A DNA stretch of 64,000 bases from NCBI GenBank assembly GCA_965220775.1, contig OZ244845.1, positions 2,066,568-2,130,567 on the forward strand, read 5' to 3'. The DNA comes from Chloroflexota bacterium. Its GTDB lineage: Bacteria; Chloroflexota; UBA6077; FW602-bin22; JBCLEL01. The position numbers were made by a program, and so were the translations under genes. A model generated the notes under the pieces. That model searched no databases, was not told the origin of the DNA, and worked only from the letters and a program-made list of their open reading frames with translations. Positions 13,313 to 38,951 of the stretch are shown piece by piece. How positions within the stretch are numbered: position 1 is the stretch's first letter; the number at the start of each line of letters is the position of its first letter.

Positions 13313-13340
13313 CGCTTACCCTCCTTTTGTGAGAATGGTA

Positions 13341-13375: not shown

Positions 13376-13488
13376 ACCCCTCTCTCCGCGCCCGGTACAC
13401 GATTTCGACCTCACTTCGCGCGTCTCGAGAGCAAGTCGGAGACCCTTCGGATCCCCTGTTACGCGTGTCTTCTTTACGGAATAGCTGA

Positions 13489-14820: not shown

Positions 14821-14922
14821 GAAACTCCGCGTGTTAGACCGTGACATTAGCCATTCTCGTTTAGTCCAGTTCGTGGGTTTGAAGCGGTAGCCGTGCCAAG
14901 TCGAATACTGTGGAGAGAATAC

Positions 14923-14958
14923 AAAAAAGGCCGAGGGGCGGATTATCCGCCCCTCGGC
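14923..14958 (-). terminator. Intrinsic terminator after the 14993..15571 gene
   Basis: On the minus strand, a 13-bp stem gccgaggggcgga / tccgcccctcggc is followed by CTTTTTTG. Confidence 0.6.
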
Positions 14959-14992
14959 GAGGGAGGAGGAGAGAGGATAGTTAGGTACTGTC

Positions 14993-15571: not shown

Positions 15572-15628
15572 AGTTATTGCCCTCCTCGTGCTACTCTCCA
15601 GCTGCGATAGGCTGCATGGACCATTAGC

Positions 15629-16870
15629 TTAGCTCGTAGGTAGCTCCGGCCATTCGCCTAGCACGACGGTCAAGGTCATCTCTGTGCCGTCGCGAACAAT
15701 CGTCAGCGTAACTTCGTCGCCGACTTCGAGACGATCGATATAGCTGCCGATCTCGTTTATCGAGGCAATCGCATCGCCATCGATCTCGGCAATTATGTCA
15801 CCGTCCTTGGCCGGTTCGGTGGCGCTGCCAGGGGCGGAGTCGCCGCGCAGGCCGGCCTGGTCGGCTGGGCCACCGTCAACCACGCGCATCACATAGATTC
15901 CTTCCTCAATGTCCAGCCCCAGCTCTTTCGCAATTCGGTTGTTCAAAGGCAGACCTGAGATGCCAAGCCACGGATACTTGATTTCTACGCCGGTTTCTAG
16001 TTTGCTCATGACTCGCTTGGCCGAGTTTATTGGTACCGAGAATCCAATGCCCACCGAGCCACGCACCGGACTCTGTATCACCGTGTTGATGCCTATCACC
16101 TCTCCGCGGCTGTTCATAAGAGGTCCGCCGCTGTTGCCTGGATTGATATCGGCGTCGGTCTGGATCATGTCGCGCATCGGCCGGCTGGTTGCGCCGATCC
16201 GCGTGCGACCAAGCGAACTGACTATGCCGGTGGTCAGGCTGCCCTGTAGGCCGAACGGACTGCCGATGGCGATGGCAATCTGGCCAACGCGGATAGCATC
16301 GGAGTCCCCCAAAACCGCTGTCATCAGGCCGGCTGGGGGATCATCAATTGCCAGTAGCGCCAGATCGTTGCTAACGTCGCGGCCAGTAACGGTAGCATCA
16401 TATTCGCTGCCATCGTAGAGTCGGACCACCGCGGACGTCACCCGACTGACAACATGATTATTGGTTAGCACCAGACCACTTTCGTCCACGATGATGCCGG
16501 AGCCGGAGCTTCCGCCCGGAATCGTCGAGCCGTCGGTATCTTCACGTGCTAGCACTCCCACGACCGAAGGAAGCACGCGTTCATACAGTTCGATCAGCGT
16601 GTTTTCGAGTACGAGCACATGTTCCTGGGCGGTTGCTCCGGGCTCCTCGTCCAAGGCCGGAACAGCCGATGGCACTGCGAGGCTTGCTGCCGGCGCACTA
16701 GACAGAATGACAGTTGGTGCGGATGACAGCATAGATATCAACGAACCGCTAGACGCAAGTGTTTTTGTGGCGTTACCTCCGCTGTAGGCAAACAACGCTC
16801 CGGCAATCAGCGCGGTGCCGATTAATACGCCGAGTGCTACTCCCACGGAGATTCTTGCTACTTGTGTCAT
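15629..16870 (-). CDS. HtrA/DegP-family trypsin-like serine protease with C-terminal PDZ
   Basis: N-terminal TM helix, TNNHVV (His), GNSGGPL (Ser), and a C-terminal PDZ-like GDIIAEIDGDAIASI. Confidence 0.85.
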   Translation of the reverse strand: MTQVARISVGVALGVLIGTALIAGALFAYSGGNATKTLASSGSLISMLSSAPTVILSSAPAASLAVPSAVPALDEEPGATAQEHVLVLENTLIELYERVLPSVVGVLAREDTDGSTIPGGSSGSGIIVDESGLVLTNNHVVSRVTSAVVRLYDGSEYDATVTGRDVSNDLALLAIDDPPAGLMTAVLGDSDAIRVGQIAIAIGSPFGLQGSLTTGIVSSLGRTRIGATSRPMRDMIQTDADINPGNSGGPLMNSRGEVIGINTVIQSPVRGSVGIGFSVPINSAKRVMSKLETGVEIKYPWLGISGLPLNNRIAKELGLDIEEGIYVMRVVDGGPADQAGLRGDSAPGSATEPAKDGDIIAEIDGDAIASINEIGSYIDRLEVGDEVTLTIVRDGTEMTLTVVLGEWPELPTS

Positions 16871-21725: not shown

Positions 21726-22409
21726 CTATTCGGTTTCAGATTCCACTATCATCTTGTACCCTATTCCCCAAACCGTCTTGATTTTGGCGTCGCTCTTGGA
21801 TAGCTTGTCCCGAAGCCAGGTCACGTGCACGTCGATTGTTCGGGAATCTCCCAAGAAATCGTATCCCCATACAGTGCTTATCAGCCGCTCGCGGTCTAGG
21901 ACGACCTCAGGATGTTTAGCAAAGGCCACCAACAGATCGAACTCCTTTGCCCGCAGCTCTACGACTTGATCATCCACCCTGACCTCGCGCTTGTCTATGT
22001 CGATCTGCAGATTTGCGAGAGCGATCCGGTCGCCGGAAAGAGGCTCGCTCTTTGACCGGCGCAATACTGCCTTTACTCGGGCCACTAGCTCGCGCGGGTT
22101 GAACGGCTTGGTTACATAATCATCCGCACCGATCTCGAGTCCAACGATCTTATCGACATCCTCGGTGCGGGCTGTCAGCATTATGATCGGCACGTTCGAA
22201 GTCTTGCGGAGCTGCCGGCATGCTTCCCAGCCGTCTATATCCGGCATCATTAGATCGAGTATGATCAGGTCCGGCTTGACGCGGCCGGCCCGTTCGATCG
22301 CCTCTCGGCCGGTGCTGGCCGACTCAACTCCAAATCCCTCGTTGCGAAGATACAACGAGACTAGCTGAACGATATTTCTCTCGTCATCGGCCACCAGAAC
22401 TGTCGACAT
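21726..22409 (-). CDS. OmpR-family response regulator
   Basis: Receiver VLVADDE...DLIILDLMMPDIDG...K, and a winged-helix C-terminus VW.......RTIDVHV..LR.KL. There is a 4-nt gap to the kinase gene. Confidence 0.9.
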   Translation of the reverse strand: MSTVLVADDERNIVQLVSLYLRNEGFGVESASTGREAIERAGRVKPDLIILDLMMPDIDGWEACRQLRKTSNVPIIMLTARTEDVDKIVGLEIGADDYVTKPFNPRELVARVKAVLRRSKSEPLSGDRIALANLQIDIDKREVRVDDQVVELRAKEFDLLVAFAKHPEVVLDRERLISTVWGYDFLGDSRTIDVHVTWLRDKLSKSDAKIKTVWGIGYKMIVESETE

Positions 22410-22828
22410 AATTGCTTCCTCTATAGCTAGGTTGCTTACTTAGACTAATTATCGGAGGCAATCCTTCGAACCGAATTAAGTGATTGTTAAATATCAGTTA
22501 TATCAGCCGGCGATTCCCATGGGCGGAATCCCTTATGTTTGCTGGCGAATTTGGCGGCATTCATTCTTGCTCGTAGTTACATTCTAACGCCAATTCGAAG
22601 TAGATGCCTGGCAATTTGCTAGTACTTTTGTGGACGAAAGCCAGTTGACATAGTGACTCGGTCAAGTTGATTACGAATCACCACGAGCATTAGGTATGGC
22701 ATCTGCAATTTCATCCATCCCAGATACGCCGGCTGTTACTTGATTGCAGTTAACCGAACTCGGATTGGGCCTCGAGACTATGCGGCTGTATGACTCAGGA
22801 AGGAGTTCCTGGTCGGGCGATTCCGAAT

Positions 22829-26724: not shown

Positions 26725-27690
26725 TCACTCTGGACTGGCGCTGTTGCCGCGTGATTCTTCAAGTCTCTCCTCATCGTCCGCGTCCCTAGAACTACTCTTG
26801 GAACCCCATCCTCCGAGCCTCCAAATTAGGAGGCCGATAAGCCCTATCACGATAACGTAGCCGACGATCTGTGCTATTTCATCCACGATTGATTGGCCGG
26901 GTAGCAGGTCCTCAAGCACTAACGCGGCTATTCCGGTCAATATGCTCACTATCACTATGGTTATCACTAACCACATTGAGTTGAGAAAGCGATCGAGAAC
27001 GAGGCGAGCCGTTCGTCGCAACCGCGCGAGCTGGGGTGCTGCCTCGGCCGGCTTGGGTTTTTCGGGTGTGCTGCTCTTGCCTGTAACAATCACTTCGACG
27101 ACGCGGGCTAATCCATCTCGGAACAGTGGCGCTAGCTGGTCACCATTGTCGAAGCCGTAGTAGAAAGTGCTAGACGCACCTGGGCTCTGGCCTCGTACCC
27201 ATGCTAATAGGCGCCGCCATATTGTCGGGTTTCCCAAGCTCGCACGAAAATCGTCGACTTTGGCCTGCGCCTCAAGGTTCTGCAACGGCGGCCCTTCCGC
27301 ATCCTTGAAGAAGAACAAGCATTCACATGTGTGCTTGTAGTAGAAGCTCTCGTACGCACGCTCGAACTCTTTTACTGTCCCAGCACCCACCCAGGAAGGA
27401 GGCGGCGCATGGAAATGCCCCCATAGCAACCCTACGAAAATGTTGTAGTCGTTCGCCGATGGCTTCTCTCTACTAGGGTCCGAGTCTACGTGTACGCCGG
27501 GCCCGAAAGGCTTGCTCTCCCATTTCACCAAATCCAGATAAATGTTGAACGTTTTCATCCATACCTGGTTCAGATCGCGAATGACATTCTCTATCAGTTC
27601 GCGCTCCGGCCGAACCTCTTCCGGCGATGCGATGAGCACCGTTAACGCTCTTGGTGTAATTGACTTGTCCGCGCCAGGCTCGGTCGCCAT
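26725..27690 (-). CDS. DUF4062/TIR-like N-terminal domain protein with two C-terminal TM helices
   Basis: N-terminus VLIASPEEVRPERELIENVIRDL...YNIFVGLLWGHF...GTVKEFERA...FFFKD resembles the DUF4062/TIR-like Rossmannoid pattern (from memory). The C-terminus has two clear hydrophobic helices (WLVITIVIVSILTGIAALVL and IVGYVIVIGLIGLLIW) and an acidic tail. Confidence 0.4.
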   Translation of the reverse strand: MATEPGADKSITPRALTVLIASPEEVRPERELIENVIRDLNQVWMKTFNIYLDLVKWESKPFGPGVHVDSDPSREKPSANDYNIFVGLLWGHFHAPPPSWVGAGTVKEFERAYESFYYKHTCECLFFFKDAEGPPLQNLEAQAKVDDFRASLGNPTIWRRLLAWVRGQSPGASSTFYYGFDNGDQLAPLFRDGLARVVEVIVTGKSSTPEKPKPAEAAPQLARLRRTARLVLDRFLNSMWLVITIVIVSILTGIAALVLEDLLPGQSIVDEIAQIVGYVIVIGLIGLLIWRLGGWGSKSSSRDADDEERLEESRGNSASPE

Positions 27691-28113: not shown

Positions 28114-31100
28114 CTAGGGCATAATACGGCGGATAGAAATCTCTACCTCGGCACCGCCGAGATTAAGCGGTTCCGAGTGGAATCCGGCCCCAGCCGATCC
28201 CCGCATCGTCTTGGTGGCTAGAGTTTCTCGGCCGATATAGTCGTTGAAGTCCTCGAAGACTTTCTCCATTGCCGGACCGCCGGAGTAGCGCAACTCGATC
28301 CTATCGGCGATGTCGAAGCCGGCGGTTTTGCGCATGGTCTGAATTCGGTGAGCTAGCTCGCGGGCAATGCCTTCGTTGAGCAACTCCTCGGTCAGATCCG
28401 TATCTATCGCAATCGTCAAGCCGTGATCCGAGGCGACGGCAAGTCCCGGCCTATCGACCTTCTGCACGTCCACCTCCTCTGGCAGAAGCGTAAAGCCATC
28501 CAATGGTATCTGCTTACCGTCCTGCACCATGTTGCCGATTACCTTTGGATCGGCGGCCTCGAGTAGCGCCGTGATTCTTCGTAGGTCGCGGCCATATTTT
28601 GGTCCGAGCAGTGGCGTTTTCGGCCGGATAGAGTAAGAAGTGAGTGCGCCGGCATCGTCCGTCACCCTAAGAGCCTTCGCGTTCAGCTCCTCGAGACATT
28701 GATTGGCTAATCGCTGCATTATTTCCGCCTCGGCCTCGTTGCGCGCCGCCACCACCAGTTCGCCGACCGGCTGACGCACCTTGATGCCGGCCTTATTTCG
28801 CGCGGATCTGCCCAAATTCACCACCTGTTGTACTATGCCCATTTCGACCAACAGGCGTTCATCGATCGCTTCGGCGGCGACAGTTGGATAGCCGTTGTGG
28901 TGTACGCTATCCGGCGCCTTACGATCCACCTTACGCACCAAGTTCTGGTAGATCGACTCTGACAGGAAAGGCGTAATTGGGGCCATCAGCTTGGCCAAGG
29001 CAACCAACGTCTCGTATAGCGTCAGATAGGCGGCCAACTTGTCGCTATCGGCTTCCGACTTCCAGAAGCGGCGCCGGCTCCGGCGAACGTACCAATTCGA
29101 CAGATCTTCTAGAAACCCCTCGATCGCTCGCGTCGCGGCAGCCGGCTGGTAGTCGCCTATGCTCTGGTCGACCGACTCGGTTAGCCGATTCAGCTTGGCG
29201 ATAATCCAGCGGTCGAGCTCGGACCGCTGTGGCAGCGGTAGATCATGCTCCGTCGGGTCGAACTGATCTATGTTCGCGTATGTGATCCAGAACGAGTAGA
29301 CGTTCCACAGCGTCAAGATGCGACGTCTCGTCTCGTTGGCCAGACCATAGCCGAAGTTGAGATTCAGGGATGGGTTCTGGCTGGTGTAGATCCAGCGCAT
29401 CACGTCGGCGCCCATCTCTTCGGCCGCATCGTCAAACCAGATCGCGTTCCCGAGACTCTTGTGCATCGCGCGGCCTTGCTCGTCTTGTAGCTTCTCAAAG
29501 ACGAATACGGTCTTGTAAGGGGCCCGGTCCTCCAGTGTTACGCTCATGAAGAGCAAGGAGTAAAACCAGAGCCGGATCTGCTCGCGCATCTCCAGCACCA
29601 GGTCCGCCGGAAACCATTTCTCCCAATACTCGCGGTCGGTCAGATAGCGCAAAGTCGAGAACGGGACAATGCCGGCGTCAAGCCAGCAGTCTCCCACCGC
29701 CGTGATGCGTGATGCCTCCCCGCCGCAACCGGGACAGCGGATCTTGATCGTGTCGATCCAAGGACGATGCAGCTCCGGCACGTTGGTCAGATCCTCGGTC
29801 GCAAGGCTAGCTAGCTCATCGCGCGACCCGACTATCGTTAGCTCGCCACAGTCGCAGTCATAGAACGGCAGCGGCAATCCCCAGAACCGCTTGCGCGAAA
29901 TGCACCAGTCGCCCATATTGTTGAGCCAGTCCTCCATTCGCTTGCCCGCATAGTCCGGGACCCATCGGACCGTGCGCGACGCTTCGATCATTCGCGGCCG
30001 GATCTCGCCGGCGCTGATGAACCACTCATCTACAAGCTTGAACACGAGTTCGGTTTGACACCGCCAACAGACCGGATAGCGATGGGATATGGACTCTCGT
30101 TTGTAAAGGAAGTCGCGCTGGTTTAGATCTGTCGCCACCGGGTCCGGCGCGTCGTGCGCGTGGATGCCAGTAAGTTCACCGAAACCAGCCACGAAATTGC
30201 CGTCGTCGTCAATCGGCACGATTGCAGGCAGCTCTTCAACCTTCGATAGCTCGTAGTCCTCCGCGCCGCAGCCAGGTGCGATATGGACGATTCCGGTGCC
30301 CTCTAGCTCGTTGACTTCATCCCAACCGACGATACGGTGCTCAATGCCGCCGACCGCCGGCAGGTGGTCGAAGGGGCCTTCGTATCGCCATCCGATCAGT
30401 TCTTGGCCTTTCATAGTCGCCAAGACCTCGTAGTCGCCGGCGAGCATGTCGATGGTACCCTTGCTCAGGTAGTAAGTGCGGTCTCCTTGGCGTACTTTGA
30501 CGTAGTCCAGCTCTGGATGGACGGCGCAGGCCACGTTCGCCGGCAGGGTCCAGGGAGTCGTGGTCCACACCACCAGATACTCGCCCGGCCGGTCCTTTAT
30601 CGGCAATCGAAGATAGATGGACGGATGGGTCACGTCGCGATAGCTGTCTATCAGCTCGTGTTGGGAGAGTGATGTGCCGCACCGGGTGCACCAGGGCATC
30701 GAGGTATGACCCTTGTAGAGCCAGCCGTTTTCGGCGCACTTCTTCAGGAAGTGCCAGATGTATTCGACGTTTGTGTCTGACATCGTGTAGTACGAGTCGT
30801 CCCAGTGCATCCACTGGCCCAGCCGAATCGATTGCTCGGTTTGTACACCGCTGAACTTATCTACGCGGGCGCGGCATTGAGCCGAGAACCTGTCGAGACC
30901 GAAGCGCTCGATTTCGCGTTTGGAGTCCAGACCAAGATCCTTCTCAACCTCCACCTCGACCCAAAGCCCCTGGCAGTCGAAACCGTTCTGGTAGCGTTGA
31001 TCCTTGCCGTGCATGGCCTGGTAGCGTTGAAAGATGTCCTTGTAGGTGCGTCCCCACGCGTGGTGCGCGCCCATCGGATTGTTGGCCGTAATAGGACCAT

Positions 31101-31269
31101 CGATGAAGGAGAAAGTGTCCTTGTCTCGGTTATTCTTGACTAACGTCTCGAAGCTGCCAATGCGCTTCCAAAAGTCTAGTATCTCGCGCTCCAATGCCGG
31201 AAAATCCGGCTTCGAACTGACCGGGTCGAATAACAATTTTGTACCCCCTAAGAAAACTCCAAGTGTCAT
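28114..31269 (-). CDS. ileS: Isoleucine--tRNA ligase
   Basis: 1051 aa with class I signatures (ANNPMGAHHAWGRT HIGH-like, MHKSLGN KMSKS-like), editing-domain length, and a zinc-knuckle region CPGCGG. It is preceded by an Ile-specific T-box. Confidence 0.95.
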   Translation of the reverse strand: MTLGVFLGGTKLLFDPVSSKPDFPALEREILDFWKRIGSFETLVKNNRDKDTFSFIDGPITANNPMGAHHAWGRTYKDIFQRYQAMHGKDQRYQNGFDCQGLWVEVEVEKDLGLDSKREIERFGLDRFSAQCRARVDKFSGVQTEQSIRLGQWMHWDDSYYTMSDTNVEYIWHFLKKCAENGWLYKGHTSMPWCTRCGTSLSQHELIDSYRDVTHPSIYLRLPIKDRPGEYLVVWTTTPWTLPANVACAVHPELDYVKVRQGDRTYYLSKGTIDMLAGDYEVLATMKGQELIGWRYEGPFDHLPAVGGIEHRIVGWDEVNELEGTGIVHIAPGCGAEDYELSKVEELPAIVPIDDDGNFVAGFGELTGIHAHDAPDPVATDLNQRDFLYKRESISHRYPVCWRCQTELVFKLVDEWFISAGEIRPRMIEASRTVRWVPDYAGKRMEDWLNNMGDWCISRKRFWGLPLPFYDCDCGELTIVGSRDELASLATEDLTNVPELHRPWIDTIKIRCPGCGGEASRITAVGDCWLDAGIVPFSTLRYLTDREYWEKWFPADLVLEMREQIRLWFYSLLFMSVTLEDRAPYKTVFVFEKLQDEQGRAMHKSLGNAIWFDDAAEEMGADVMRWIYTSQNPSLNLNFGYGLANETRRRILTLWNVYSFWITYANIDQFDPTEHDLPLPQRSELDRWIIAKLNRLTESVDQSIGDYQPAAATRAIEGFLEDLSNWYVRRSRRRFWKSEADSDKLAAYLTLYETLVALAKLMAPITPFLSESIYQNLVRKVDRKAPDSVHHNGYPTVAAEAIDERLLVEMGIVQQVVNLGRSARNKAGIKVRQPVGELVVAARNEAEAEIMQRLANQCLEELNAKALRVTDDAGALTSYSIRPKTPLLGPKYGRDLRRITALLEAADPKVIGNMVQDGKQIPLDGFTLLPEEVDVQKVDRPGLAVASDHGLTIAIDTDLTEELLNEGIARELAHRIQTMRKTAGFDIADRIELRYSGGPAMEKVFEDFNDYIGRETLATKTMRGSAGAGFHSEPLNLGGAEVEISIRRIMP

Positions 31270-31289: not shown

Positions 31290-31322
31290 AAAAAATAAGC
31301 TCTCGTCCATAGGGACGAGAGC
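31290..31322 (-). terminator. T-box attenuator terminator
   Basis: On the minus strand, gctctcgtcc-ctat-ggacgagagc is followed by TTATTTTTT. Its 5' arm (ctctcg) can alternatively pair with cgagag of the T-box to form the antiterminator. Confidence 0.75.
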
Positions 31323-31545
31323 CAATACTCTCGCGGTACCACCCTAACTAGCAGGTAGCTCGCTCATCAAGGGCGCGCAACCCTACGGTTGTAGGCCCCC
31401 GCCGGCGTTAACGATCGGCGACTCCGTCCGCGTCTACTCGGCTCTACGCGTTTCGGGCGGATGCTCAGGAATGATTTTCAGCCGGATAGCCGGCCCGCTT
31501 TCACCATCCGCGGGCTCTCTGATCGGTCTTCTCGCAGCTTACTCG
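31290..31545 (-). promoter_or_regulatory. T-box riboswitch leader, Ile specifier (AUC)
   Basis: The minus strand contains the canonical T-box AGUUAGGGUGGUACCGCGAGAG (31331-31350), an AGAGAG bulge, a GGUGAAAG distal loop, and the specifier context GAAA-AUC-A (codon at 31473-31475). It lies directly upstream of ileS. Confidence 0.8.
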
Positions 31546-31583
31546 TTTCCCTCGTAGCAGCTTCGATATTGACTTGTCGCCTG

Positions 31584-31613: not shown

Positions 31614-31824
31614 TCGCCCCGCCGCCGATTCAGGGGGTTTCAATTCTTTAATATTTAGGACTTCTAGAGTATTTTCCTAGGCCGACAAGCAGTTGGTCGA
31701 AACAGTCAACCAACCAAGGCCATTTCGATAGTCCGCAAACCGCATGTCGTCATTCCTGCGAAGGCAGGAATCCAGAGGAGAGGGGGGAGGCACGACCACC
31801 GCCAACCTTTGGTGACAACGAAAG

Positions 31825-32070
31825 TTAGAGAATCAAAAACCCCTGCGCCGATTGCATAATTGACCAACGACTAACGTATTTTGCAGCCATCCGCTCTAAC
31901 TTGACCCAATCCCTCCACCCAACAATGTCCAACTCATATGCTGAAAATATCTTGCCTGTTGTACCATATGCGTGCGATATTTTCATAAATACTGCAACTG
32001 AGTTGCAAAGGCCTATCTTGAGAATCTTGGCGATTAGTGATGGTCGATGAGAATCATCCAGTTGATTCAC
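31825..32070 (-). CDS. Small hypothetical protein (81 aa) in an AT-rich patch
   Basis: The only ORF in a visibly low-GC stretch. It is divergent from the XRE/ImmA gene. No motif; coding status is uncertain. Confidence 0.3.
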   Translation of the reverse strand: MNQLDDSHRPSLIAKILKIGLCNSVAVFMKISHAYGTTGKIFSAYELDIVGWRDWVKLERMAAKYVSRWSIMQSAQGFLIL

Positions 32071-32163
32071 TTGGCCCGATGATCGAATGAGTGGTGATTA
32101 CCGCCAGCTAGGATTCTCCAGTGCCGCAGATCCGTGTGAGCTCGCGGCGATGAGGAATATGTC

Positions 32164-33303
32164 GTGAGTCTTGACAACGCTACTATTGGGTCCCGCCTTC
32201 GAGCCGCCCGCCGGACTCTGGTTCTCACGCAGACCGACGCCGGCAGCCATATGGGAATGGTCACTTCTACGGTTTCGGCCATAGAGGCCGGCAAACGCAG
32301 CGCAACTGGTTCTGAACTGTACGAGTTCTCCCAGCTATACCAACGACCAGTCGCCTACTTCCTTCAAACGGAAGACTTGTCGTCCTCCCCCGGGTTCCAG
32401 TACCTTTTCCGGCGAGTGGACGACACAGTACTCGACCGCTCCCCAATCGTCGAGCTCGAGAGCCTTGCGTCCGACTACGATCTTCTCGAGGACCTTGTTG
32501 GCGTATCTCCCCCTCCATTGCCGCCCGACTACTCTAGCTTTGAGTTTAGAGGAGAGAAGGACGCGGAAGCGCTAGCTGAAATGGAGCGCGTCCGGCTTGG
32601 TCTCGGTGACGCTCCGGTCAAAGACCTCGTCGACCTCTTGGACGGTAATGTCGGCATCCGGGTTTTTATGTTGCCAGTTGGTCAAAAAAGCTTGTCCGGC
32701 CTAGTTGTCCAAAGTCGTAGCGGTCGCCCTTGTGTCTTGGTCAACTCCACCGAAATCCACTATCGACGCAACTTTACCTTGGCCCACGAATACGCTCACG
32801 CATTGGTTCATCTCTCGGAACCATCTGCACCCAAGGCCTGGATCGACTTCTCTTCGAAGAGCAACAGGAAGGATCCGGAGGAGCGCTTCGCTGACTCGTT
32901 CGCCGCCGCGTTCTTGATGCCGAGACGCGCTGTCTTCTCCCAACTTAATCTCATGGCGCGCGGTAGAGCAAAGGAGTTTAAGGATAGTGATTGGGCGCAT
33001 CTGGCTATGCACTTTGGCGTAAGCGGGCAGGCCATGTCCCTACGACTTGTGACCCTTCGCAAACTTTCCAGGCAAGCCCAAAGAGACTACTGGGAGCAAA
33101 GATCCTTTAAGCCAATCGCCGAGGCCTTGGGATACGAAGTCGAGGATGAAGATTGGACAGAGCATGCCATTTTGCCCCCTCGCTACCGCTATCTCGCTAT
33201 GAGAGCTTACGAAGAGGACACCATCTCTCTTTCAAAGCTGGCGGAGTTGCTCAGAGAGGATTTCTACGAATTGCGCGATAGGCTGCATAACATTGCAGAA
33301 TGA
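32164..33303 (+). CDS. XRE-family HTH fused to ImmA/IrrE (M78, DUF955) zinc metallopeptidase
   Basis: N-terminal HTH (IGSRLRAARRTLVLTQTDAGSHMGMVTSTVSAIEAGKR), central HExxH (LAHEYAHALVH), and downstream ERFADSFAAAFLMP, typical of ImmA/IrrE. GTG start. Confidence 0.8.
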   Translation: MSLDNATIGSRLRAARRTLVLTQTDAGSHMGMVTSTVSAIEAGKRSATGSELYEFSQLYQRPVAYFLQTEDLSSSPGFQYLFRRVDDTVLDRSPIVELESLASDYDLLEDLVGVSPPPLPPDYSSFEFRGEKDAEALAEMERVRLGLGDAPVKDLVDLLDGNVGIRVFMLPVGQKSLSGLVVQSRSGRPCVLVNSTEIHYRRNFTLAHEYAHALVHLSEPSAPKAWIDFSSKSNRKDPEERFADSFAAAFLMPRRAVFSQLNLMARGRAKEFKDSDWAHLAMHFGVSGQAMSLRLVTLRKLSRQAQRDYWEQRSFKPIAEALGYEVEDEDWTEHAILPPRYRYLAMRAYEEDTISLSKLAELLREDFYELRDRLHNIAE

Positions 33304-33370
33304 GTCGCCAAGCCCGGACCCACCTCCTCGTTCGCTGGCGTCAATTCATACTTCATTTCGAACATAAATC

Positions 33371-33871
33371 GTGCCGGCTGCACTCCCTACCCGCATAGTC
33401 CTCGACAATTCCGTGATCTCCGCGCTCCGCGAAGCGGAATCGTTGTCGAGAGTGTTGGGGTTCTGGCCGGCACGATGGATAGTTCCCTTACAGGCCAGAG
33501 ATGAGGCAGCGGCGTGGAAGCTTCAAGGAGCGAAAGTCGTTGCCATTCTCGACTCGCTAGGGCGGGAGTCGGTCGTCGAGTTGGCATCGGTTGAACCGAG
33601 AATCGAGGGCCCCCTACTTGTCCGCTTGCAGCGTACGCTAGGGCAGGGAGAGTCGGGGTCAATCGCAATCGCGTTTCACCGCGCGGCTTGGGTTGCTACC
33701 GACGACCGGCGGGCTCGCCGGGCGTGCGACGAACTATCGCCAAGGGTGCGGTGGGTCTCCACCGAGAGGCTGCTCGGCCTGGCGGTAACTGATGGATTCC
33801 TCACACAGACCCAAGCGGAGGAGGTTTGGTCCGCAACCAAGATCCGAGACCCAAAGAGACGCATCCCGTAA
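33371..33871 (+). CDS. PIN-like (DUF3368-type) predicted nuclease
   Basis: IVLDNSVI (Asp on the first strand), GESGSIAIA, and ATDDRRARRAC..L...V..TE.LL match the layout of PIN/DUF3368 proteins. It begins 67 nt after the XRE/ImmA gene. Confidence 0.55.
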   Translation: MPAALPTRIVLDNSVISALREAESLSRVLGFWPARWIVPLQARDEAAAWKLQGAKVVAILDSLGRESVVELASVEPRIEGPLLVRLQRTLGQGESGSIAIAFHRAAWVATDDRRARRACDELSPRVRWVSTERLLGLAVTDGFLTQTQAEEVWSATKIRDPKRRIP

Positions 33872-33879
33872 ATCACCCC

Positions 33880-34479
33880 TCAGCCGGCCCAGGTCTCCCA
33901 ACGCCGGCCCACCTCGGCAACGTCCTCCGGCGTAGTCGCCTTCACCCATTCTCCATCCACCCTTCTAGAGCCTGTCCATTCCTCTAGCAGTGATTGAATC
34001 TCCCAGAGCACCGGACTATGACCTTCGATCAGCCGGCGGTCCCCATCAAACTCCATGTAACGATAGTTTCCGTGCCGCTCGAAGTGTGCACGCACCTCTT
34101 GCCATCCCTGGATGCCACAAACGTCATGGCGACCGTTCAGCACCGCGGGAATGCCAGTGATAGGCACCGGCAGCAAGTGGAGATGGGCGTGGTACACTGA
34201 TTGGCCGGAAACACCGTTCTCCCAGGCCGACGCTTCCGTCTGATAGGTGTCTCGCAGAAACCGTCGGACCGTCTCGACGCATTCGTCCAACTCGGTCAAA
34301 CCCTCGGCCGGCGCTTCCCCGTAACAGCGCAGATGCTCCTTACTGATAATCAAGATTTGACCGCGGACCATCGGATACTTGTCCGCCCTCACGTAAAGCG
34401 ATTCCGTCTCGAAAAGGCTCGCCGGCTGGTCTCTGCGGGAGCAAAAAACGCATTCGGTAGTTTCCCTAGTCCGGCTCAA
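33880..34479 (-). CDS. HIT-family (histidine triad) protein with C-terminal extension
   Basis: CVFC..., the HAHLHLLP histidine triad, and a 14-nt overlap with the 3' end of aspS suggesting co-transcription. Confidence 0.7.
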   Translation of the reverse strand: MSRTRETTECVFCSRRDQPASLFETESLYVRADKYPMVRGQILIISKEHLRCYGEAPAEGLTELDECVETVRRFLRDTYQTEASAWENGVSGQSVYHAHLHLLPVPITGIPAVLNGRHDVCGIQGWQEVRAHFERHGNYRYMEFDGDRRLIEGHSPVLWEIQSLLEEWTGSRRVDGEWVKATTPEDVAEVGRRWETWAG

Positions 34480-36238
34480 TTTCAGTCACTTTGATGTGCA
34501 GCGGCTCCAGCTCCGCCTCCGACACAACGTCTGGCGATCCCGTCATCGGCTCCGCGCCGGCCTGCGACTTTGGGAACGCGGTCATCTCGCGCAGGTTTTC
34601 TTCGCCGGCCAGAATCATCGACAGCCGGTCGATTCCGACTGCGATGCCACCGTGCGGCGGCGTCCCGTACTCGAATGCCTCCAACATGTGGCCGAACAGG
34701 TATTTTGTCCGCTCGTCGCTCATTCCCAGAATGCGAAAGATCTTCGATTGAAGCTCACGCTCATGGATTCGAATGCTTCCGCCGCCAAGTTCGTACCCGT
34801 TCAGAACCACGTCATACTGATTCGCCCGTGCCTTTATCGGATCGGTGTCTAGCAGCGGTATGTCCTCCGGCAGGATCGACGTGAATTGATGGTGTTTGGC
34901 TTGGATCGTTCCGCGCTCCTCGCTCCACTCGAACGCCGGCATCTCGGTTATCCAACAGAAAGCCAGTACGTTCGGGTCCGCCATCTCATGCTTGTCGCCG
35001 ACCGCCAGCCGGACCGCGCCCAGCGCCTCGCAAGCCGCGTATTTCTCGTCGGCCACCAAGAGCAGCAGATCGCCGGCCTTGCAGCCGGCCGCTGACGCAA
35101 GCCGATTCAAATCGCCTTCGGAGAAAAACCGCGTAAGAGGAGACTTGATTCCGTCCGGGTTGAACGCGCACGTAACCAGGCCGCCGGCGCCGGCCCTGCG
35201 TGCGATAGTGTTGAGTTCATCCAACTCGCGGCGGGTGGAGCCAGCAGCGTCCGGTACCACCAACGCCTTGATCACCCCGCCGGCGTCTAACGCCCGGTCG
35301 AAAACTCGAAAGGCACCGCGTTTCACCGCCGAAGTCACGTCGCACAGCTCCAGTCCGAAGCGGATATCTGGCTTGTCGCTTCCGAAACGGCTCATTGCCT
35401 CCTCATAAGTCATTCTCGGGAAAGGACTGGCCAGTAACTGTTTGTTGCCTATCGCCGGGCAAACTTCGGTTAGAAGTGCCTCGGTCAGGTTGAGGATGTC
35501 TTCCTGCTCGATAAACGACATCTCCACGTCAAGCTGCGTGAACTCCAATACGCGGTCGGCGCGCAGGTCCTCGTCGCGGAAGCAGCGCGCGATCTGGAAG
35601 TAGCGGTCGATCCCGCCTACCATTAGCATCTGTTTGTACTGCTGCGGTGACTGAGGTAGGGCGTAGAAATGGCCGGCGTGTAGTCGGCTCGGCACCAGGA
35701 ACTCCCGCGCGCCGCCGGGTGTTTCTTTGACCAAGATAGGCGTCTCTACGTCGATAAAGTCCCGATCCCACATCCATTCTCGAATCCGGCGCACCAACTC
35801 GTGGCGGATCCTTAAATTGTTCAACGGACGCGTCCGCCTCAGGTCCAAGTAGCGGTGCTGCAATCTCAAAGATTCGTCGATGTCGACATCTTCGTTGATG
35901 TAGAAGGGCGGGTTCTTTGCCGGATTCAGAATATTCGCTGTCTGGACCATCAACTCGATTTCGCCGGTCGATAACGAGGCATTTACGGTGCCGGCTGGTC
36001 TCTGCTCGATTATCCCGGTGACTTGGATGACGTACTCCGGCCGAGTCTGGACGGCGATATCGTGCGCCTCCGGCGAGACCTCCGGATTGAACACGACTTG
36101 GGTGAGACCCCAGCGGTCCCGCATGTCGATGAATATAAGACCGCCATGTGAGCGCCGGCGGTGTACCCATCCGGCCAGCGTGACAGTTTGGCCGGCGTTG
36201 GCCGGCCTCAGTTCACCGCAATTGTGTGTCCTTAACAA
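34466..36238 (-). CDS. aspS: Aspartate--tRNA ligase
   Basis: [36 protein letters not shown] and [10 protein letters not shown]. 590 aa, bacterial type. TTG start with GGAGG 9 nt upstream. Confidence 0.95.
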
Positions 36239-36362: not shown

Positions 36363-36720
36363 GTGCCCAGTCTAAGTGTTACCCATCTCCCCGGTCGTAC
36401 AATGAGGGTGAACCCGGTAGCGCTGGGGCTCTTCCCCAGACCTCGCCAATCCGGCCAGCCATTTGATCGATTCGCCCTGCAGAATCGCGCCTCCGGCGAA
36501 AGCGTGCCCCGTACTTCTATGCGTGGGCCGGAACCCAGAGCGCGGTGTCAGGCGTGTAATCCAACCAAGCCAGAGCCGGTATCCAGAGGAGGCAAACTCA
36601 TACCTCCTCTCCCTCGATGGGAGAGGATTGAGGTGAGGATGTATACACCCCGGCACCTGGCACAGACTCCACCAACCCGCCTCGCCAACCCCTGCGAGGA
36701 GACAACCTCCATCGGCGAGA
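36363..36720. repeat. Cluster D of mosaic hairpin repeats
   Basis: M1 variant gtagcgctggggctcttccccaga (36417-36440), M2 variant gtgccccgtacttctatgcgtgggccggaaccc (36506-36536), and a further hairpin cctcctctccctcgatgggagaggattgagg. Confidence 0.55.
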
Positions 36721-36721
36721 C

Positions 36722-37534
36722 CTACGAACTCCGTCGCTCCATGGTTGGGGTATCGAGCAACTCCTGGTCCGCCATCCAGCGAATCCAGCGCTGGTGAGTC
36801 TCGTCGTCGATCGAACGCCAGAAATCAGGGTACAGCTGGTGCCCGGGATGCGTTGCCCTGGTTTGAGCGAACATTCGCTGGTTTGACTCCATCTGGTCGC
36901 GAACCGCAAGTAGGGCCTGATCGCTGGTCGGCTCCTCGTAGAACCCAATCTCGCACATCCGCCGGCGGGCCCCTCCGTGGAATGCCCCGTGCCAGATCGG
37001 CATGTTGAACGCAAGGACGTCTCCCGGCTCTGTCTCGAACACGTAGGCCGGCAGCTCATCGGGGTTGACGCCAAATGTAGATTGCGTGTCCCTATTGATC
37101 GTGCTCCACAACGGCTCGCGGTGGGAGCCCGGTATCACGCGCAAGGCCCCATTCGTCGCATCCAGCCGGTCGAAATATGTCGTGAACTTAACCGCCTTGT
37201 AGTCCAAGTTTTTCGCGTCCGCATGCCAGGAAGTGTCGCCTACGTGGTAGCTTCCGCCTATTGCGACGCCAAGCACCCTCGTACCCAGCAACTGCTCAGC
37301 CACGCCGGCTATGCGTGGATCGTGCATCAAAGATGAGGAGAAAGGAGTATTCGAGTCCATCAGTGATGCGAAGTGCCTCGCCTTCCCTTCGTGGACGCCG
37401 TTCGGGAGCCAGGAATCGAGTTCGCTATCGAACTCCTGGCCGAACTTCTGCATTTCATCTGGGGAAAAGAGCTGGCGCAGGGCCACGAAACCGAAGGTGT
37501 TGAAGTGGTTCAGCTGCTGCTGAGTCAGATTCAT
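36722..37534 (-). CDS. PhyH-like Fe(II)/2-oxoglutarate dioxygenase (paralog of the tandem array)
   Basis: MNLTQQQLNHFNTFGFVALRQLFSPDEM, WHAD, RVIPGSHREPLW and FNMPIWHGAFHGG show the same architecture as genes 908..1726 and 1985..2812. Confidence 0.8.
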   Translation of the reverse strand: MNLTQQQLNHFNTFGFVALRQLFSPDEMQKFGQEFDSELDSWLPNGVHEGKARHFASLMDSNTPFSSSLMHDPRIAGVAEQLLGTRVLGVAIGGSYHVGDTSWHADAKNLDYKAVKFTTYFDRLDATNGALRVIPGSHREPLWSTINRDTQSTFGVNPDELPAYVFETEPGDVLAFNMPIWHGAFHGGARRRMCEIGFYEEPTSDQALLAVRDQMESNQRMFAQTRATHPGHQLYPDFWRSIDDETHQRWIRWMADQELLDTPTMERRSS

Positions 37535-37550
37535 TGGATGCTCTCCTTGT

Positions 37551-38951
37551 TCACTCCAAGATAGTGGACAGCGCCCTGTAGACGCTTCCCATGGCCCTCA
37601 CGTCGTCATTGGGAAGAATCGTCCGCAAGTCGATCAATACGCGGTCGTGTTCGATCCGTCCGATGACCGGCGGCTCGGCTGCGCGCAGCGCACGAGCGAT
37701 TATATCGCAATCCAAGCCATCCCCACGGCCGGCCCGCCCTATGTGCACGGCCCAAGATTCCAACTCTTGCGCCGGCGTCGACCCTCCGCCAACGGTCGCG
37801 CTGCTGTGAATCAGGCCGACCTCCGCTGGCAAAGGCGCTAGGTTGTCTAGCCAACACTGTCCCCTTGATTCGAGCTCGGTAGTTGAGGCGGAGATCATGC
37901 GCCAGACCGGTATCTTCTCGGTCGCTTCTCCACGTTGGTAATGCCGCAAAGTCGCCTCGAGGGCTGCCAGACTCATTTTGTCGATTCGTAACGCTCGAGC
38001 CAATGGGTGGCTGGCGCAGCGCTGTACTGCATCGGACCTTCCTACAATCAAGCCGGCCTGGGGGCCTCCCAGCAACTTGTCGCCGGAAAAGCAAACCAGG
38101 TCGGCGCCCGCCTCGACGCTGTCTCGCACTATCGGTTCGTCGCGCAGACCAAACTGCTCGGGATCTATGAGGCAACCGCTGCCCAGGTCATCGACAACGC
38201 TGAGTCCGTGCCGGCCGGCCAGTTCCACCAACTCTTCCAAAGGTGGCTCGTGGGTGAAGCCTATGATCCGGAAATTACTCTGATGCACCCGGAGGAAAAC
38301 CGCGGTGTCCGGCCCAACCGCTCGCTCGTAGTCGGCGAGGTAGGTGCGATTGGTAGTGCCAACCTCCACCAGCTGGCCGCCGCTCTGCTCCATCACCTCA
38401 GGTATGCGGAAACCGCCTCCGATCTCTATCGCCTGGCTTCGCGAAACGACGATCTCGCGACAAGTCGCCAGCGATGCCAACGCAAGAAGTACGGCGCCGG
38501 CATTGTTGTTCGCCACCAATGCGTCTTCAGCGCCAGTCAGCTCGGCGAGCCAACTTCGAACGTGGCTGTGGCGCGATCCGCGGTTTCCTTCGTCGAGATC
38601 GAATTCGAGGTTTGAGTAGCTGGTTGCGGCGTTCATCGCTGCTGCCGCCGCGTCGTCGGACAGCGTAGCTCGACCCAGGTTCGTGTGAATGATGACGCCG
38701 GTGCCGTTGATTACCGGCCGCAGGTTGAGTTGCTGTGACCTCTCGACGCTACGCTCCAGTCGAGCTACCAATGCCGCTGGCCCGGCTGCTGACTCGCCGG
38801 CGATCCGGCTGTTGCGCTCGTCGGCCAGTACCGCTCGGACCTGGTCCGCTACGACGGCACGCCCATTCAATTCAATTAGCTTGGCCACTTCCGGCATCGA
38901 TAACATACGATCCACGCTCGGAATGTCGCGGAGATTGGCGTGCACGATCAT
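37551..38951 (-). CDS. selA: L-seryl-tRNA(Sec) selenium transferase
   Basis: LRDIPSVDRML, VINGTGVIIHTNLGRA and FSGDKLLGGPQAGLIVG (PLP lysine context) are SelA signatures. Confidence 0.85.
   Translation of the reverse strand: MIVHANLRDIPSVDRMLSMPEVAKLIELNGRAVVADQVRAVLADERNSRIAGESAAGPAALVARLERSVERSQQLNLRPVINGTGVIIHTNLGRATLSDDAAAAAMNAATSYSNLEFDLDEGNRGSRHSHVRSWLAELTGAEDALVANNNAGAVLLALASLATCREIVVSRSQAIEIGGGFRIPEVMEQSGGQLVEVGTTNRTYLADYERAVGPDTAVFLRVHQSNFRIIGFTHEPPLEELVELAGRHGLSVVDDLGSGCLIDPEQFGLRDEPIVRDSVEAGADLVCFSGDKLLGGPQAGLIVGRSDAVQRCASHPLARALRIDKMSLAALEATLRHYQRGEATEKIPVWRMISASTTELESRGQCWLDNLAPLPAEVGLIHSSATVGGGSTPAQELESWAVHIGRAGRGDGLDCDIIARALRAAEPPVIGRIEHDRVLIDLRTILPNDDVRAMGSVYRALSTILE

What the first reader, a model, noticed from the sequence alone, without database searches (positions are those of the whole stretch)
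31660..33875. Low-GC insert between the ileS T-box leader and HIT-aspS: XRE-HTH/ImmA metallopeptidase fusion + PIN-like nuclease + small divergent ORF (candidate toxin-antitoxin / anti-phage module)
**What the sequence shows.** Two housekeeping aminoacyl-tRNA synthetase loci are separated by about 2.2 kb that looks foreign.
- There is a visibly AT-rich patch at 31800-32100 containing an 81-aa orphan ORF on the minus strand.
- A divergently transcribed 379-aa protein joins an XRE helix-turn-helix to an ImmA/IrrE-type HExxH peptidase (LAHEYAHALVH).
- 67 nt downstream lies a 166-aa PIN/DUF3368-like protein with the acidic residues expected of a nuclease (VLDNS, GESGS, TDDRRA).

**Interpretation.** As far as I recall, an XRE + M78-peptidase regulator next to a variable toxin is the architecture reported for RosmerTA-type defence systems and for several prophage and ICE de-repression switches. 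A PIN-like partner plus an extra small ORF is not a combination I recognise as described. No integrase or att repeat is visible, so it would be a stand-alone module rather than a prophage remnant.
Basis: partly seen in the sequence, partly recalled or inferred. Interest (0 to 1): 0.75.

Follow-up and report, generated by a model that had tools for sequence, protein, structure and literature searches.

The report
XRE-peptidase plus PIN nuclease toxin-antitoxin pair
This is a two-gene toxin-antitoxin-like operon (a repressor fused to a zinc peptidase, followed by a PIN-type nuclease) of a kind predicted from genomes since 2009, sitting in an uncultured Chloroflexota genome, so it is a new example rather than a new kind of system.

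Summary
The two large ORFs are real and correctly described. The 379-aa protein (32164-33303, +) has an XRE helix-turn-helix plus an M78 (ImmA/IrrE) peptidase domain, with the HExxH motif and the third zinc ligand invariant. The 166-aa protein (33371-33871, +) has a confidently modelled PIN/VapC fold with four invariant acidic residues.

At least 12 distinct Chloroflexota/Planctomycetota loci keep the pair adjacent, in about 10 different neighbourhoods. The two orphan PIN copies I found are both N-terminally truncated. Both genes are under purifying selection (dN/dS about 0.2). Their synonymous divergence from the closest relatives is 5-7 times that of the flanking ileS and aspS, which points to old alleles swapped by recombination at a fixed site.

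- The 81-aa ORF is not a gene. It has an in-frame stop and a frameshift in relatives, no third-position bias, and its end lies in a window-specific 215-bp MITE-like insertion.
- Only the non-coding 31631-32163 stretch is low-GC.
- The combination is already described (Makarova 2009; Matelska 2017, which names COG2405/DUF3368; NetFlax 2023).

Verdict: a new member of a known, computationally predicted toxin-antitoxin/RosmerTA-like class. This effector type has not been tested experimentally, and interest is modest.

The parts
31846..32163 (.). AT-rich (GC 0.47) intergenic control region between the divergent ileS T-box promoter and the XRE-M78 gene. It contains a candidate operator, the inverted repeat CTGAAAATATC-24 nt-GATATTTTCAT at 31941-31986. 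A GAGGAA ribosome-binding site lies upstream of the GTG start.
   Evidence: GC. The region is 93-98% identical to L001/L012 while the genes downstream fall to 68-88%. Inverted repeats of similar geometry occur upstream of homologs in L011, L005 and L013 but not in L001/L012. The operator role is inferred, with low confidence.
32164..33303 (+). 379-aa XRE helix-turn-helix plus M78 (ImmA/IrrE/COG2856) zinc peptidase plus C-terminal helical domain. Predicted autorepressor and antitoxin (RmrA-like).
   Evidence: Pfam HTH_3/HTH_31 and Peptidase_M78. PADLOC RmrA E 1e-26 and capP E 3e-18. phrog_2439 E 5e-38. H208, E209, H212 and E240 are invariant in 41 homologs. AF2 pLDDT 81.8. Foldseek finds CapP 7t5t and IrrE/PprI 3dte/8sln for the peptidase domain, and P22 c2/ImmR for the HTH. 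dN/dS is about 0.2.
33304..33370 (+). 67-nt spacer between the two genes. No terminator was predicted, so co-transcription is inferred.
   Evidence: One search finds no terminator here. In homologous loci the spacing ranges from a 4-nt overlap to 64 nt.
33371..33871 (+). 166-aa PIN-like (COG2405/DUF3368-related) nuclease, the predicted toxin/effector. It converges on the HIT gene with an 8-nt gap.
   Evidence: AF2 pLDDT 94.2. All top Foldseek PDB hits are VapC/PIN (TM 0.60-0.66 normalised to target, probability 1.0), and they include SSO1118 2mdt. D12, E45, E94, D111 and E132 are invariant in 36 homologs. Weak PADLOC PDC-S70 match, E 8.5e-6. dN/dS is about 0.2.
31631..31845 (.). NOT part of the module. 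A window-specific 215-bp MITE-like insertion with terminal inverted repeats CAGGGGGTTTCAATTCTTTAA / TTAGAGAATCAAAAACCCCTG and an 8-bp target-site duplication CGCCGATT (31623-31630 and 31846-31853).
   Evidence: Clean empty site in L001, L012, L003 and L011. TIR and direct repeat. Folds with z = -4.2. No second copy in the window or in fetched loci.
31825..32070 (-). NOT a gene.
   Evidence: Its last 7 codons and stop lie inside the MITE. In L001/L012 the same frame has an in-frame stop and a 1-nt frameshift. Substitutions by codon position are 7/2/2 and 9/3/2 (30/31/28 against L003). It has no family hit anywhere.

Best explanation
This is a two-gene, type II toxin-antitoxin-like operon of the Xre-COG2856 (RmrA-like) class with a PIN-like nuclease as effector.

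Shown here:
- Gene 1 encodes an N-terminal XRE HTH, an M78 zinc peptidase with an intact HExxH...E site, and a C-terminal helical domain.
- Gene 2 encodes a PIN/VapC-fold protein with the canonical acidic residues.
- The two genes are always adjacent and co-diverge.
- Both are under purifying selection.
- Divergent alleles have been exchanged at a fixed chromosomal site.

Inferred by analogy with VapBC, RosmerTA, ImmR/ImmA, DdrO/IrrE and CapH/CapP:
- The HTH represses the operon from an operator in the AT-rich upstream region.
- The same protein binds and neutralises the PIN nuclease.
- A stress or phage-derived cue activates the peptidase. It then cleaves the repressor/antitoxin, in cis or between subunits.
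- Cleavage de-represses the operon and frees the PIN nuclease. The nuclease cuts RNA (tRNA, rRNA or mRNA) and arrests growth, which would give abortive infection if the cue is a phage.
For: Domains and catalytic residues.

Structures: PIN model pLDDT 94.2 with only VapC/PIN top hits. Peptidase domain resembles CapP/IrrE/PprI, and the HTH resembles P22 c2/ImmR.

Obligate pairing: every intact PIN homolog examined (about 12 distinct loci, PIN 28-82% identity) has the XRE-M78 gene directly upstream, in about 10 unrelated neighbourhoods. Several of these are TA islands carrying PemK, HicAB, DUF433-PIN_10 or AbiE-like genes. The identities of the two proteins fall together across loci.

Orphan copies: the only two PIN copies without the partner (L021, L017) are N-terminally truncated and lack the first catalytic Asp. 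That is expected if the intact nuclease is toxic without its partner.

Selection and exchange: dN/dS is about 0.2 for both genes. dS is 0.59-0.74 for the pair against 0.08-0.21 for ileS, aspS, selA and HIT relative to the nearest relatives. The M78 domain reaches dS 1.1-1.2, and the identity profile is mosaic.

Literature: this architecture is predicted as a TA system. RmrA-type Zn-peptidase proteins are validated antitoxins in RosmerTA, and delta-rmrA is not transformable. One representative of the PIN candidate class PDC-S70 protected E. coli from T4, T5 and T7.
Against: - No experiment exists for this pair or for any COG2405/DUF3368-type partner that I could find.
- The PIN protein matches no PADLOC RmrT model, and PDC-S70 only weakly (24 bits).
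- It matches no Pfam model directly.
- The pair sits at the same site in all five related genomes examined, so within this clade it behaves like a stable resident rather than an obviously mobile insert.
- No empty site (ileS next to HIT-aspS) was found.
- The candidate operator is not conserved in the closest relatives.
- No sigma-70-like promoter was detected for the operon.
- Direct antitoxin-toxin contact could not be modelled with the tools available.
Confidence: 0.7

Rival explanations
1. A lineage-resident stress regulator rather than a toxin-antitoxin pair. The XRE-M78 protein would act like IrrE/PprI or RamB, as a signal-activated protease/regulator. The PIN protein would be a regulated, non-toxic RNA-processing or repair nuclease that is part of the clade's core physiology.
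For: Same position between ileS and HIT-aspS in L001, L002, L003, L012 and (left side only) L011. Purifying selection on both genes. Host-like GC. Structural similarity of the peptidase domain to IrrE/PprI, including the ssDNA-bound form.
Against: Synonymous divergence is 5-7 times that of the flanking core genes and is mosaic. The pair occurs in about 10 unrelated neighbourhoods, often among TA genes. Orphan PIN copies are truncated. The distribution is patchy: only 9 loci came from species representatives in GTDB using narrow patterns.
Confidence: 0.12
2. A remnant of a prophage or ICE immunity switch (ImmR/ImmA-like fused repressor and anti-repressor) left behind after the element decayed, with the PIN gene as former cargo.
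For: Strong match to PHROG 2439, phage transcriptional regulators, E 5e-38. Makarova 2009 notes such operons are abundant in phages and prophages. The HTH resembles ImmR and P22 c2.
Against: No integrase, att-like repeats or phage structural genes lie within about 5 kb on either side here, or in the annotated relatives. The same bare two-gene unit recurs in many contexts. There are no tblastn hits for the PIN protein in 50,697 phage or 72,556 plasmid records. Both genes are intact and under purifying selection.
Confidence: 0.05
3. A three-component system in which the divergent 81-aa ORF is a third protein.
For: An 81-aa ORF is present at 31825-32070 (-).
Against: In the closest relatives it is broken by an in-frame stop and a frameshift. 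It has no third-codon-position substitution bias. It is absent or scrambled in L003/L011. Its 3' end is supplied by a window-specific MITE. It has no homolog or family hit.
Confidence: 0.01

Closest known systems
Xre-COG2856 (HTH-DUF955/M78) fusion with a PIN-like toxin: the predicted 'three-component' TA system of Makarova et al. 2009 (PMC2701414) and Matelska et al. 2017 (PMC5499597)
   Same: Same architecture: a fused XRE HTH and HExxH zinc peptidase, followed in the same operon by a PIN-like protein. Matelska et al. explicitly list COG2405/DUF3368 among the PIN-like partners and cite a Geobacillus example.
   Different: This is a Chloroflexota-specific subfamily. The PIN protein no longer scores against the Pfam DUF3368 model. 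The class remains a computational prediction, and I found no functional test of a COG2405-type member.
RosmerTA (RmrT toxin plus RmrA Zn-peptidase antitoxin; Millman et al. 2022; Ernits et al. 2023)
   Same: The gene 1 protein matches 16 PADLOC RmrA models (best E 1e-26) over HTH plus peptidase. It is a two-gene unit. NetFlax notes the ImmA/Rosmer antitoxin hub also pairs with PIN-like domains.
   Different: The partner matches no RmrT model. Validated RmrT toxins are of unknown function or membrane-depolarising, not nucleases. Gene order here is antitoxin first.
VapBC type II toxin-antitoxin systems
   Same: The effector has the VapC/PIN fold, with acidic residues at the canonical positions. 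It is the downstream gene of a bicistronic operon whose first product has a DNA-binding domain.
   Different: Sequence identity to VapC is only 11-19%. The partner is a 379-aa HTH-peptidase, not a small AbrB/RHH/Phd-type VapB.
Protease-repressor switches ImmR/ImmA (ICEBs1), DdrO/IrrE(PprI) and CapH/CapP (CBASS)
   Same: Homologous M78 peptidase fold and XRE HTH. A plausible shared logic is signal-activated cleavage of an XRE repressor.
   Different: There the repressor and protease are separate proteins that control an ICE, a DNA-damage regulon or a CBASS operon. Here they are fused, and the only controlled gene apparent is the PIN nuclease.
PADLOC candidate PDC-S70 (single-gene PIN nuclease defence candidate)
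   Same: Weak HMM similarity (E 8.5e-6). It is a PIN nuclease, and one representative gave 100-1000-fold protection against T4/T5/T7 in E. coli.
   Different: The match is weak (24 bits). PDC-S70 is defined as a single gene, is mostly archaeal, and has no XRE-M78 partner.

Membership tests
Xre-COG2856 + PIN predicted TA system (Makarova 2009; Matelska 2017) | XRE-type HTH fused to a COG2856/M78 peptidase with a conserved HExxH motif | tested here: met
   Pfam HTH_3/HTH_31 plus Peptidase_M78. H208, E209, H212 and E240 invariant in 41 homologs. Peptidase fold matches CapP/IrrE.
Xre-COG2856 + PIN predicted TA system (Makarova 2009; Matelska 2017) | PIN-like gene adjacent on the same strand in a putative operon | tested here: met
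   67-nt gap, same strand. Adjacency is kept in about 12 distinct loci. PIN fold.
Xre-COG2856 + PIN predicted TA system (Makarova 2009; Matelska 2017) | TA-like patchy or mobile distribution | tested here: met
   About 10 different neighbourhoods. dS is 5-7 times that of the flanks, with mosaic identity. However, the site is fixed within the closest clade.
Xre-COG2856 + PIN predicted TA system (Makarova 2009; Matelska 2017) | Toxicity of the PIN protein and its neutralisation by the partner | not testable with these tools
   Only indirect evidence: the two orphan PIN copies found are N-terminally truncated.
RosmerTA | RmrA: Zn-peptidase (M78) antitoxin, often with an N-terminal HTH | tested here: met
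   16 PADLOC RmrA HMMs match, best E 1.2e-26, covering residues 10-309. PADLOC models carry no curated cut-off.
RosmerTA | RmrT: partner recognised by a known RmrT model | tested here: not met
   A PADLOC scan of the 166-aa protein returns only PDC-S70 models and no RmrT.
RosmerTA | Anti-phage activity | not testable with these tools
   Needs a phage challenge experiment.
PIN-like superfamily, COG2405/DUF3368 group | PIN (VapC-like) alpha/beta/alpha fold | tested here: met
   AF2 pLDDT 94.2, pTM 0.89. Of the top 50 Foldseek PDB hits, nearly all are PIN domains, including 2mdt (SSO1118), the COG2405 structural representative named by Matelska.
PIN-like superfamily, COG2405/DUF3368 group | Conserved acidic active-site residues | tested here: met
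   D12, E45, D111 and E132 (plus E94 of GQGES) are invariant in 36 homologs. They sit after beta1, in the helix after beta2, after beta4 and after beta5 of the model.
PIN-like superfamily, COG2405/DUF3368 group | Match to Pfam PF11848 (DUF3368) above the gathering score | tested here: inconclusive
   Direct hmmscan gives no hit for the window protein or any of 36 homologs. The protein collection's precomputed annotation lists PF11848 for nearly all homologs. More distant relatives found with the family profile hit PF11848 at 15-30 bits; one is above the 27.3-bit cut-off. They also hit PF01850 PIN just below its cut-off.
ImmR/ImmA-type ICE or prophage switch | Separate repressor and anti-repressor genes next to an integrase or mobile-element genes | tested here: not met
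   The domains are fused. No integrase or phage genes occur in the window neighbourhood or in annotated relatives.
CapH/CapP regulator of CBASS | Adjacent CBASS (CD-NTase plus effector) operon | tested here: not met
   The neighbours are ileS, HIT and aspS. Similarity to capP is at the domain level only.

The most novel reading that the evidence does not exclude
The pair is a working anti-phage system: a RosmerTA-type module whose effector is a COG2405/DUF3368-like PIN nuclease, an effector class never validated for this family. Anciently diverged alleles, most diverged in the peptidase 'sensor' domain (dS about 1.2), would be kept and shuffled at one fixed chromosomal site by frequency-dependent selection from phage triggers or inhibitors. 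A more remote possibility is that its position, sharing a control region with the ileS T-box promoter, reflects a functional link between a tRNA-cleaving PIN toxin and tRNA-sensing regulation.
Probability: 0.25. Interest if true: 0.45.

Novelty: new member of a known kind. Interest (0 to 1): 0.25.

Why it matters
If the inferred mechanism holds, this would be an uncultured-Chloroflexota example of a protease-gated nuclease toxin. It would give the long-predicted Xre-COG2856 + PIN class (2009) a tractable test case. All catalytic residues are identified, high-confidence models exist for both proteins, and natural allelic series are available from related genomes. The pattern of old, mosaic alleles at a fixed site between two essential synthetase operons is a small but clean illustration of how TA/defence alleles are exchanged by homologous recombination using conserved flanks. 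Otherwise it is an ordinary accessory module.

Tried and rejected
- Looking up the contig of the identical protein P0001: not on record.
- Scanning JGI metagenome contigs with the HIT protein for an empty site: only one distant hit.
- HIT homolog contexts: a variable TA/defence-like island and a PIN remnant next to HIT in more distant relatives, but no clean ileS|HIT-aspS junction. The direction (insertion versus ancestral presence) stays unresolved.
- Direct Pfam and NCBIfam scans of the 166-aa protein: nothing.
- Sequence and profile searches of the 166-aa protein against PDB: nothing meaningful. Only the fold comparison worked.
- tblastn of the PIN protein against phage and plasmid collections: no match.
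- Search for further copies of the MITE in the window, the fetched loci and plasmids: none.
- Search for a conserved operator: long-spaced inverted repeats in some lineages but not in the closest relatives, so not convincing.
- Sigma-70 scan: found the ileS promoter but none for the operon.
- Paper search for PDB 9VZY, the closest solved sequence relative of gene 1: nothing relevant.
- Cluster look-up for source names: none.
- One mis-specified translation request failed.
- Rejected: the 81-aa ORF as a gene, the low-GC-island argument, and the prophage-remnant reading.
Full report
**1. What is at the coordinates**

- ileS lies at 28114-31269 (-). It is preceded by a T-box leader at 31308-31564 (-) (Rfam RF00230, 103 bits against a gathering score of 93) and a good promoter, TTGACT-18-TAGAAT, at 31613-31584.
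- A 379-aa ORF lies at 32164-33303 (+).
- A 166-aa ORF lies 67 nt downstream at 33371-33871 (+).
- A HIT-family gene (33880-34479, -) converges on the 166-aa ORF with an 8-nt gap and overlaps aspS (34466-36238, -).
- The quoted motifs LAHEYAHALVH, VLDNS, GESGS and TDDRRA are present.

The 'low-GC insert' label does not hold for the genes. The window averages GC 0.577 (sd 0.034 for 300-nt windows). The two genes are 0.554 and 0.621. Only the non-coding 31631-32163 stretch is low, at 0.47-0.49.

**2. Gene 1**

- Pfam finds HTH_3/HTH_31 at residues 8-66 and Peptidase_M78 at 163-295 (E 8e-17).
- Sixteen PADLOC RmrA (RosmerTA antitoxin) models match, the best at E 1.2e-26 over residues 10-309. capP matches at E 2.9e-18.
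- PHROG 2439 (phage transcriptional regulators) matches at E 5.5e-38.
- The NCBIfam spr1629 repressor/antitoxin model matches far below its cut-off.
- In an alignment of 41 homologs (40-82% identity), H208, E209 and H212 of HExxH and the third ligand E240 are invariant. The peptidase is therefore probably active.
- The AF2 model (pLDDT 81.8) superposes its peptidase domain on CapP (7t5t), IrrE (3dte) and ssDNA-bound PprI (8sln). Its HTH superposes on P22 c2, C.BclI and ImmR.
- By sequence, the closest solved chain is 9vzy_A, a 393-aa 'HTH cro/C1-type domain-containing protein' (E 5e-10). I found no paper for it.

**3. Gene 2**

My own hmmscan finds no Pfam or NCBIfam family for the 166-aa protein, even at E 10. 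It finds none for any of its 36 aligned homologs either. The protein collection's precomputed annotation, by contrast, lists PF11848 (DUF3368) for almost all of them.

Structure settles the question.
- The AF2 model has pLDDT 94.2 and pTM 0.89.
- Its best PDB matches are all PIN domains: VapC of Salmonella, Shigella, the F plasmid and M. tuberculosis, PAE2754 and Nob1. TM-scores normalised to the target are 0.6-0.66 and probability is 1.0. SSO1118 (2mdt) is among them. Matelska et al. list 2mdt as the structural representative of COG2405/DUF3368.
- D12, E45, D111 and E132 are invariant across the 36 homologs. They fall after beta1, in the helix after beta2, after beta4 and after beta5 of the model, which are the canonical PIN active-site positions. 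E94 of the GQGES motif is also invariant.

A profile of the family finds 1307 50%-identity clusters at E <= 0.001 among 1.84 billion representatives, but only 13 at E <= 1e-30. More distant members hit PF11848 at 15-30 bits (one is above the 27.3-bit cut-off) and hit PF01850 PIN just below its cut-off. The protein is thus a divergent, Chloroflexota-centred branch of the COG2405/DUF3368 PIN-like group. It also weakly matches PADLOC's PDC-S70 (E 8.5e-6). PDC-S70 is a PIN-nuclease defence candidate, and one representative protected E. coli against T4, T5 and T7.

**4. The 81-aa ORF is not a gene, and a MITE sits in the interval**

I aligned the ileS-to-gene-1 intergenic region with four related genomes. 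The window carries a 215-bp insertion (31631-31845) that all four lack. It has these features:
- 21-nt terminal inverted repeats, CAGGGGGTTTCAATTCTTTAA / TTAGAGAATCAAAAACCCCTG;
- an 8-bp direct duplication, CGCCGATT, on each side;
- a fold far more stable than shuffles, z = -4.2.

It therefore looks like a MITE. No second copy was found in the sequence available to me.

The last seven codons and the stop of the 81-aa ORF lie inside this insertion. The two closest relatives (ileS 98% identical) show an in-frame stop and a 1-nt frameshift in the same frame. Substitutions fall 7/2/2 and 9/3/2 on codon positions 1/2/3, and 30/31/28 in a more distant relative. This is a chance ORF across an AT-rich control region.

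**5. Comparative context**

All relatives found among GTDB species representatives are Chloroflexota MAGs, apart from one Planctomycetota at 28% identity.

In the closest relatives (ileS 88-98% identical) the pair sits at exactly the same place: ileS - T-box - pair - HIT - aspS (L001, L002, L003, L012). In L011 only the ileS side is kept.

Further away (PIN 48-67% identical) the same two-gene unit lies in unrelated neighbourhoods. Several are TA islands:
- PemK, DUF433-PIN_10 and DUF1016 in L005;
- HicAB and DUF433 in L007;
- other contexts in L008, L013, L014, L016, L018 and a JGI contig.

Every intact PIN homolog examined has the XRE-M78 gene directly upstream, with spacing from a 4-nt overlap to 67 nt. 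The identities of the two proteins fall together across loci.

The only two copies without the partner are truncated at the N terminus and lack the first catalytic Asp.
- L021 keeps residues 62-166 next to a HIT gene, with the same 8-nt convergent junction as in the window. It is otherwise surrounded by PIN/HTH/transposase genes.
- L017 sits next to AbiE-like genes.

In L025/L026 the corresponding place next to HIT holds HicB-like, SIR2-like and AAA ATPase genes. I did not find a genome with ileS directly abutting HIT-aspS, so insertion versus ancestral presence cannot be polarised.

**6. Evolutionary signal**

Against the two nearest genomes, DNA identity is 0.94-1.00 in the flanks. It falls to 0.68-0.88 from about 32200 to 33800, with a mosaic pattern that differs between the two relatives.

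Nei-Gojobori estimates against L012/L001:

| Gene | dS | dN/dS |
|---|---|---|
| ileS | 0.11 | - |
| aspS | 0.13 | - |
| selA | 0.08-0.13 | - |
| HIT | 0.19-0.21 | - |
| XRE-M78 | 0.59-0.62 | about 0.2 |
| PIN | 0.72-0.74 | about 0.2 |

Those pair values equal the ones against L003, where the flanks are also at 0.6-0.8.

By domain, dS is 0.3 (HTH), 0.6 (linker), 1.1-1.2 (M78) and 0.3-0.4 (C-terminal). The upstream control region is 93-98% identical.

The genes are therefore functional. Old, divergent alleles have been moved into a conserved site by homologous recombination. That behaviour is expected of TA or defence cargo and not of core genes. It supports the 'foreign' intuition by a different route than GC.

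**7. Mechanism**

Shown here:
- the domain identities, folds and intact catalytic sites;
- the operon-like arrangement and obligate pairing;
- truncation of orphan PIN copies;
- purifying selection together with allele exchange.

Inferred from the named families (VapBC; RosmerTA; ImmR/ImmA, DdrO/IrrE and CapH/CapP):
- The HTH autoregulates from the AT-rich region. A candidate operator is the inverted repeat CTGAAAATATC-24-GATATTTTCAT at 31941-31986. Similar long-spaced repeats occur in L011, L005 and L013 but not in L001/L012, so confidence is low.
- The 379-aa protein neutralises the PIN nuclease.
- A stress or phage cue activates the peptidase to cleave the repressor/antitoxin.
- The freed PIN nuclease degrades RNA and stops growth.

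I put about 0.7 on the TA-like antitoxin/regulator plus nuclease-toxin reading. Within that, I put roughly one in three on a demonstrable anti-phage role.

**8. Comparison with what is known**

It is described.
- Makarova et al. 2009 tabulated COG2856-Xre fusions linked to PIN and RelE toxins and proposed a three-component TA system.
- Matelska et al. 2017 list COG2405 (DUF3368), DUF4411, PIN_14, PIN_20 and PIN_26 as PIN-like partners co-transcribed with HTH-DUF955 fusions. They give a Geobacillus COG2405 example.
- Millman et al. 2022 named the validated Zn-peptidase-antitoxin systems RosmerTA and cited these predictions.
- Ernits et al. 2023 note the ImmA/Rosmer antitoxin hub paired with PIN-like domains.
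- About 30%-identical XRE-M78 proteins on Agrobacterium and Salinibacter plasmids are followed by roughly 190-200-aa hypothetical proteins. The Agrobacterium one matches the PIN family profile at hhalign probability 91%.

Strict RosmerTA membership fails on one tested feature: the partner matches no RmrT model. I file the pair as a new member of the Xre-COG2856 + PIN-like class that works like RosmerTA/VapBC. I found no experimental study of a COG2405/DUF3368-type partner.

**9. Verdict**

This is a real and correctly located two-gene module. The third ORF and the GC argument are wrong, and the novelty claim is wrong. It is ordinary for the field, with a tidy recombination signature and a side finding (the MITE). 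Interest is 0.25.

Noticed in passing
window 31631-31845: A 215-bp MITE-like insertion with 21-nt terminal inverted repeats and an 8-bp target-site duplication (CGCCGATT). It sits 17 nt upstream of the -35 box of the ileS T-box promoter. Four related genomes have a clean empty site. It contains the hairpin TCATTCCTGCGAAGGCAGGAATCC. No other copy was found in the window, the fetched loci or the plasmid collection.
   Followed up: yes
window 26725-27690 (-): A 321-aa protein downstream of ileS, conserved at this position in L001, L003, L011 and L012. It has no Pfam domain. Its N-terminal 140 residues match PADLOC defence candidate PDC-S60 (E 1e-20), and its C terminus looks membrane-spanning (weak SAVED_TM/CARF-TM hits). 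ileS may be flanked on both sides by defence-candidate genes.
   Followed up: partly
L008 5606-6805 and L014 4399-5451: In two lineages a 350-399-aa ORF lies directly upstream of, and overlaps, the XRE-M78 gene. The two ORFs are 47% identical to each other, have a Cys-rich N terminus, and give only a weak DUF4417 hit (E 0.004). This suggests a three-gene variant of the module. A JGI contig has a 264-aa ORF in the same position.
   Followed up: partly
L021 9519-9836; L017 2686-3210: Orphan remnants of the PIN gene that lack the N-terminal catalytic region and the XRE-M78 partner. The L021 remnant keeps the same 8-nt convergent junction with a HIT gene that is only 58% identical to the window's, while the remnant itself is 75% identical.
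   Followed up: yes
window 36600-37800 (PhyH gene 36722-37534): A second patch of raised divergence: dS 0.54 against L001 but 0.16 against L012. Recombination patches are therefore not unique to the TA module in this lineage.
   Followed up: partly
L002 6794-7761 and 9099-10873: In one 37-kb long-read contig both the XRE-M78 gene and aspS are split by frameshifts. Because an essential gene is also affected, these are probably assembly errors rather than pseudogenisation.
   Followed up: no
L025/L026 about 10100-15800 and L021 9500-15700: In more distant relatives the region beyond the 3' end of the HIT gene is a variable island. It holds HicB-like, SIR2_2, AAA_21/AAA_15, PIN (PF01850), HTH and Y1 transposase genes.
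   Followed up: no
window about 22351-22800: Another stretch of unusually low GC (0.44), the lowest in the window together with 31801-32100. Not examined.
   Followed up: no
PDB 9vzy_A versus window 32164-33303: A recently deposited 393-aa 'HTH cro/C1-type domain-containing protein' is the closest solved sequence relative of the XRE-M78 protein (E 5e-10 over residues 10-301). It is absent from the fold library, and no paper was found.
   Followed up: partly
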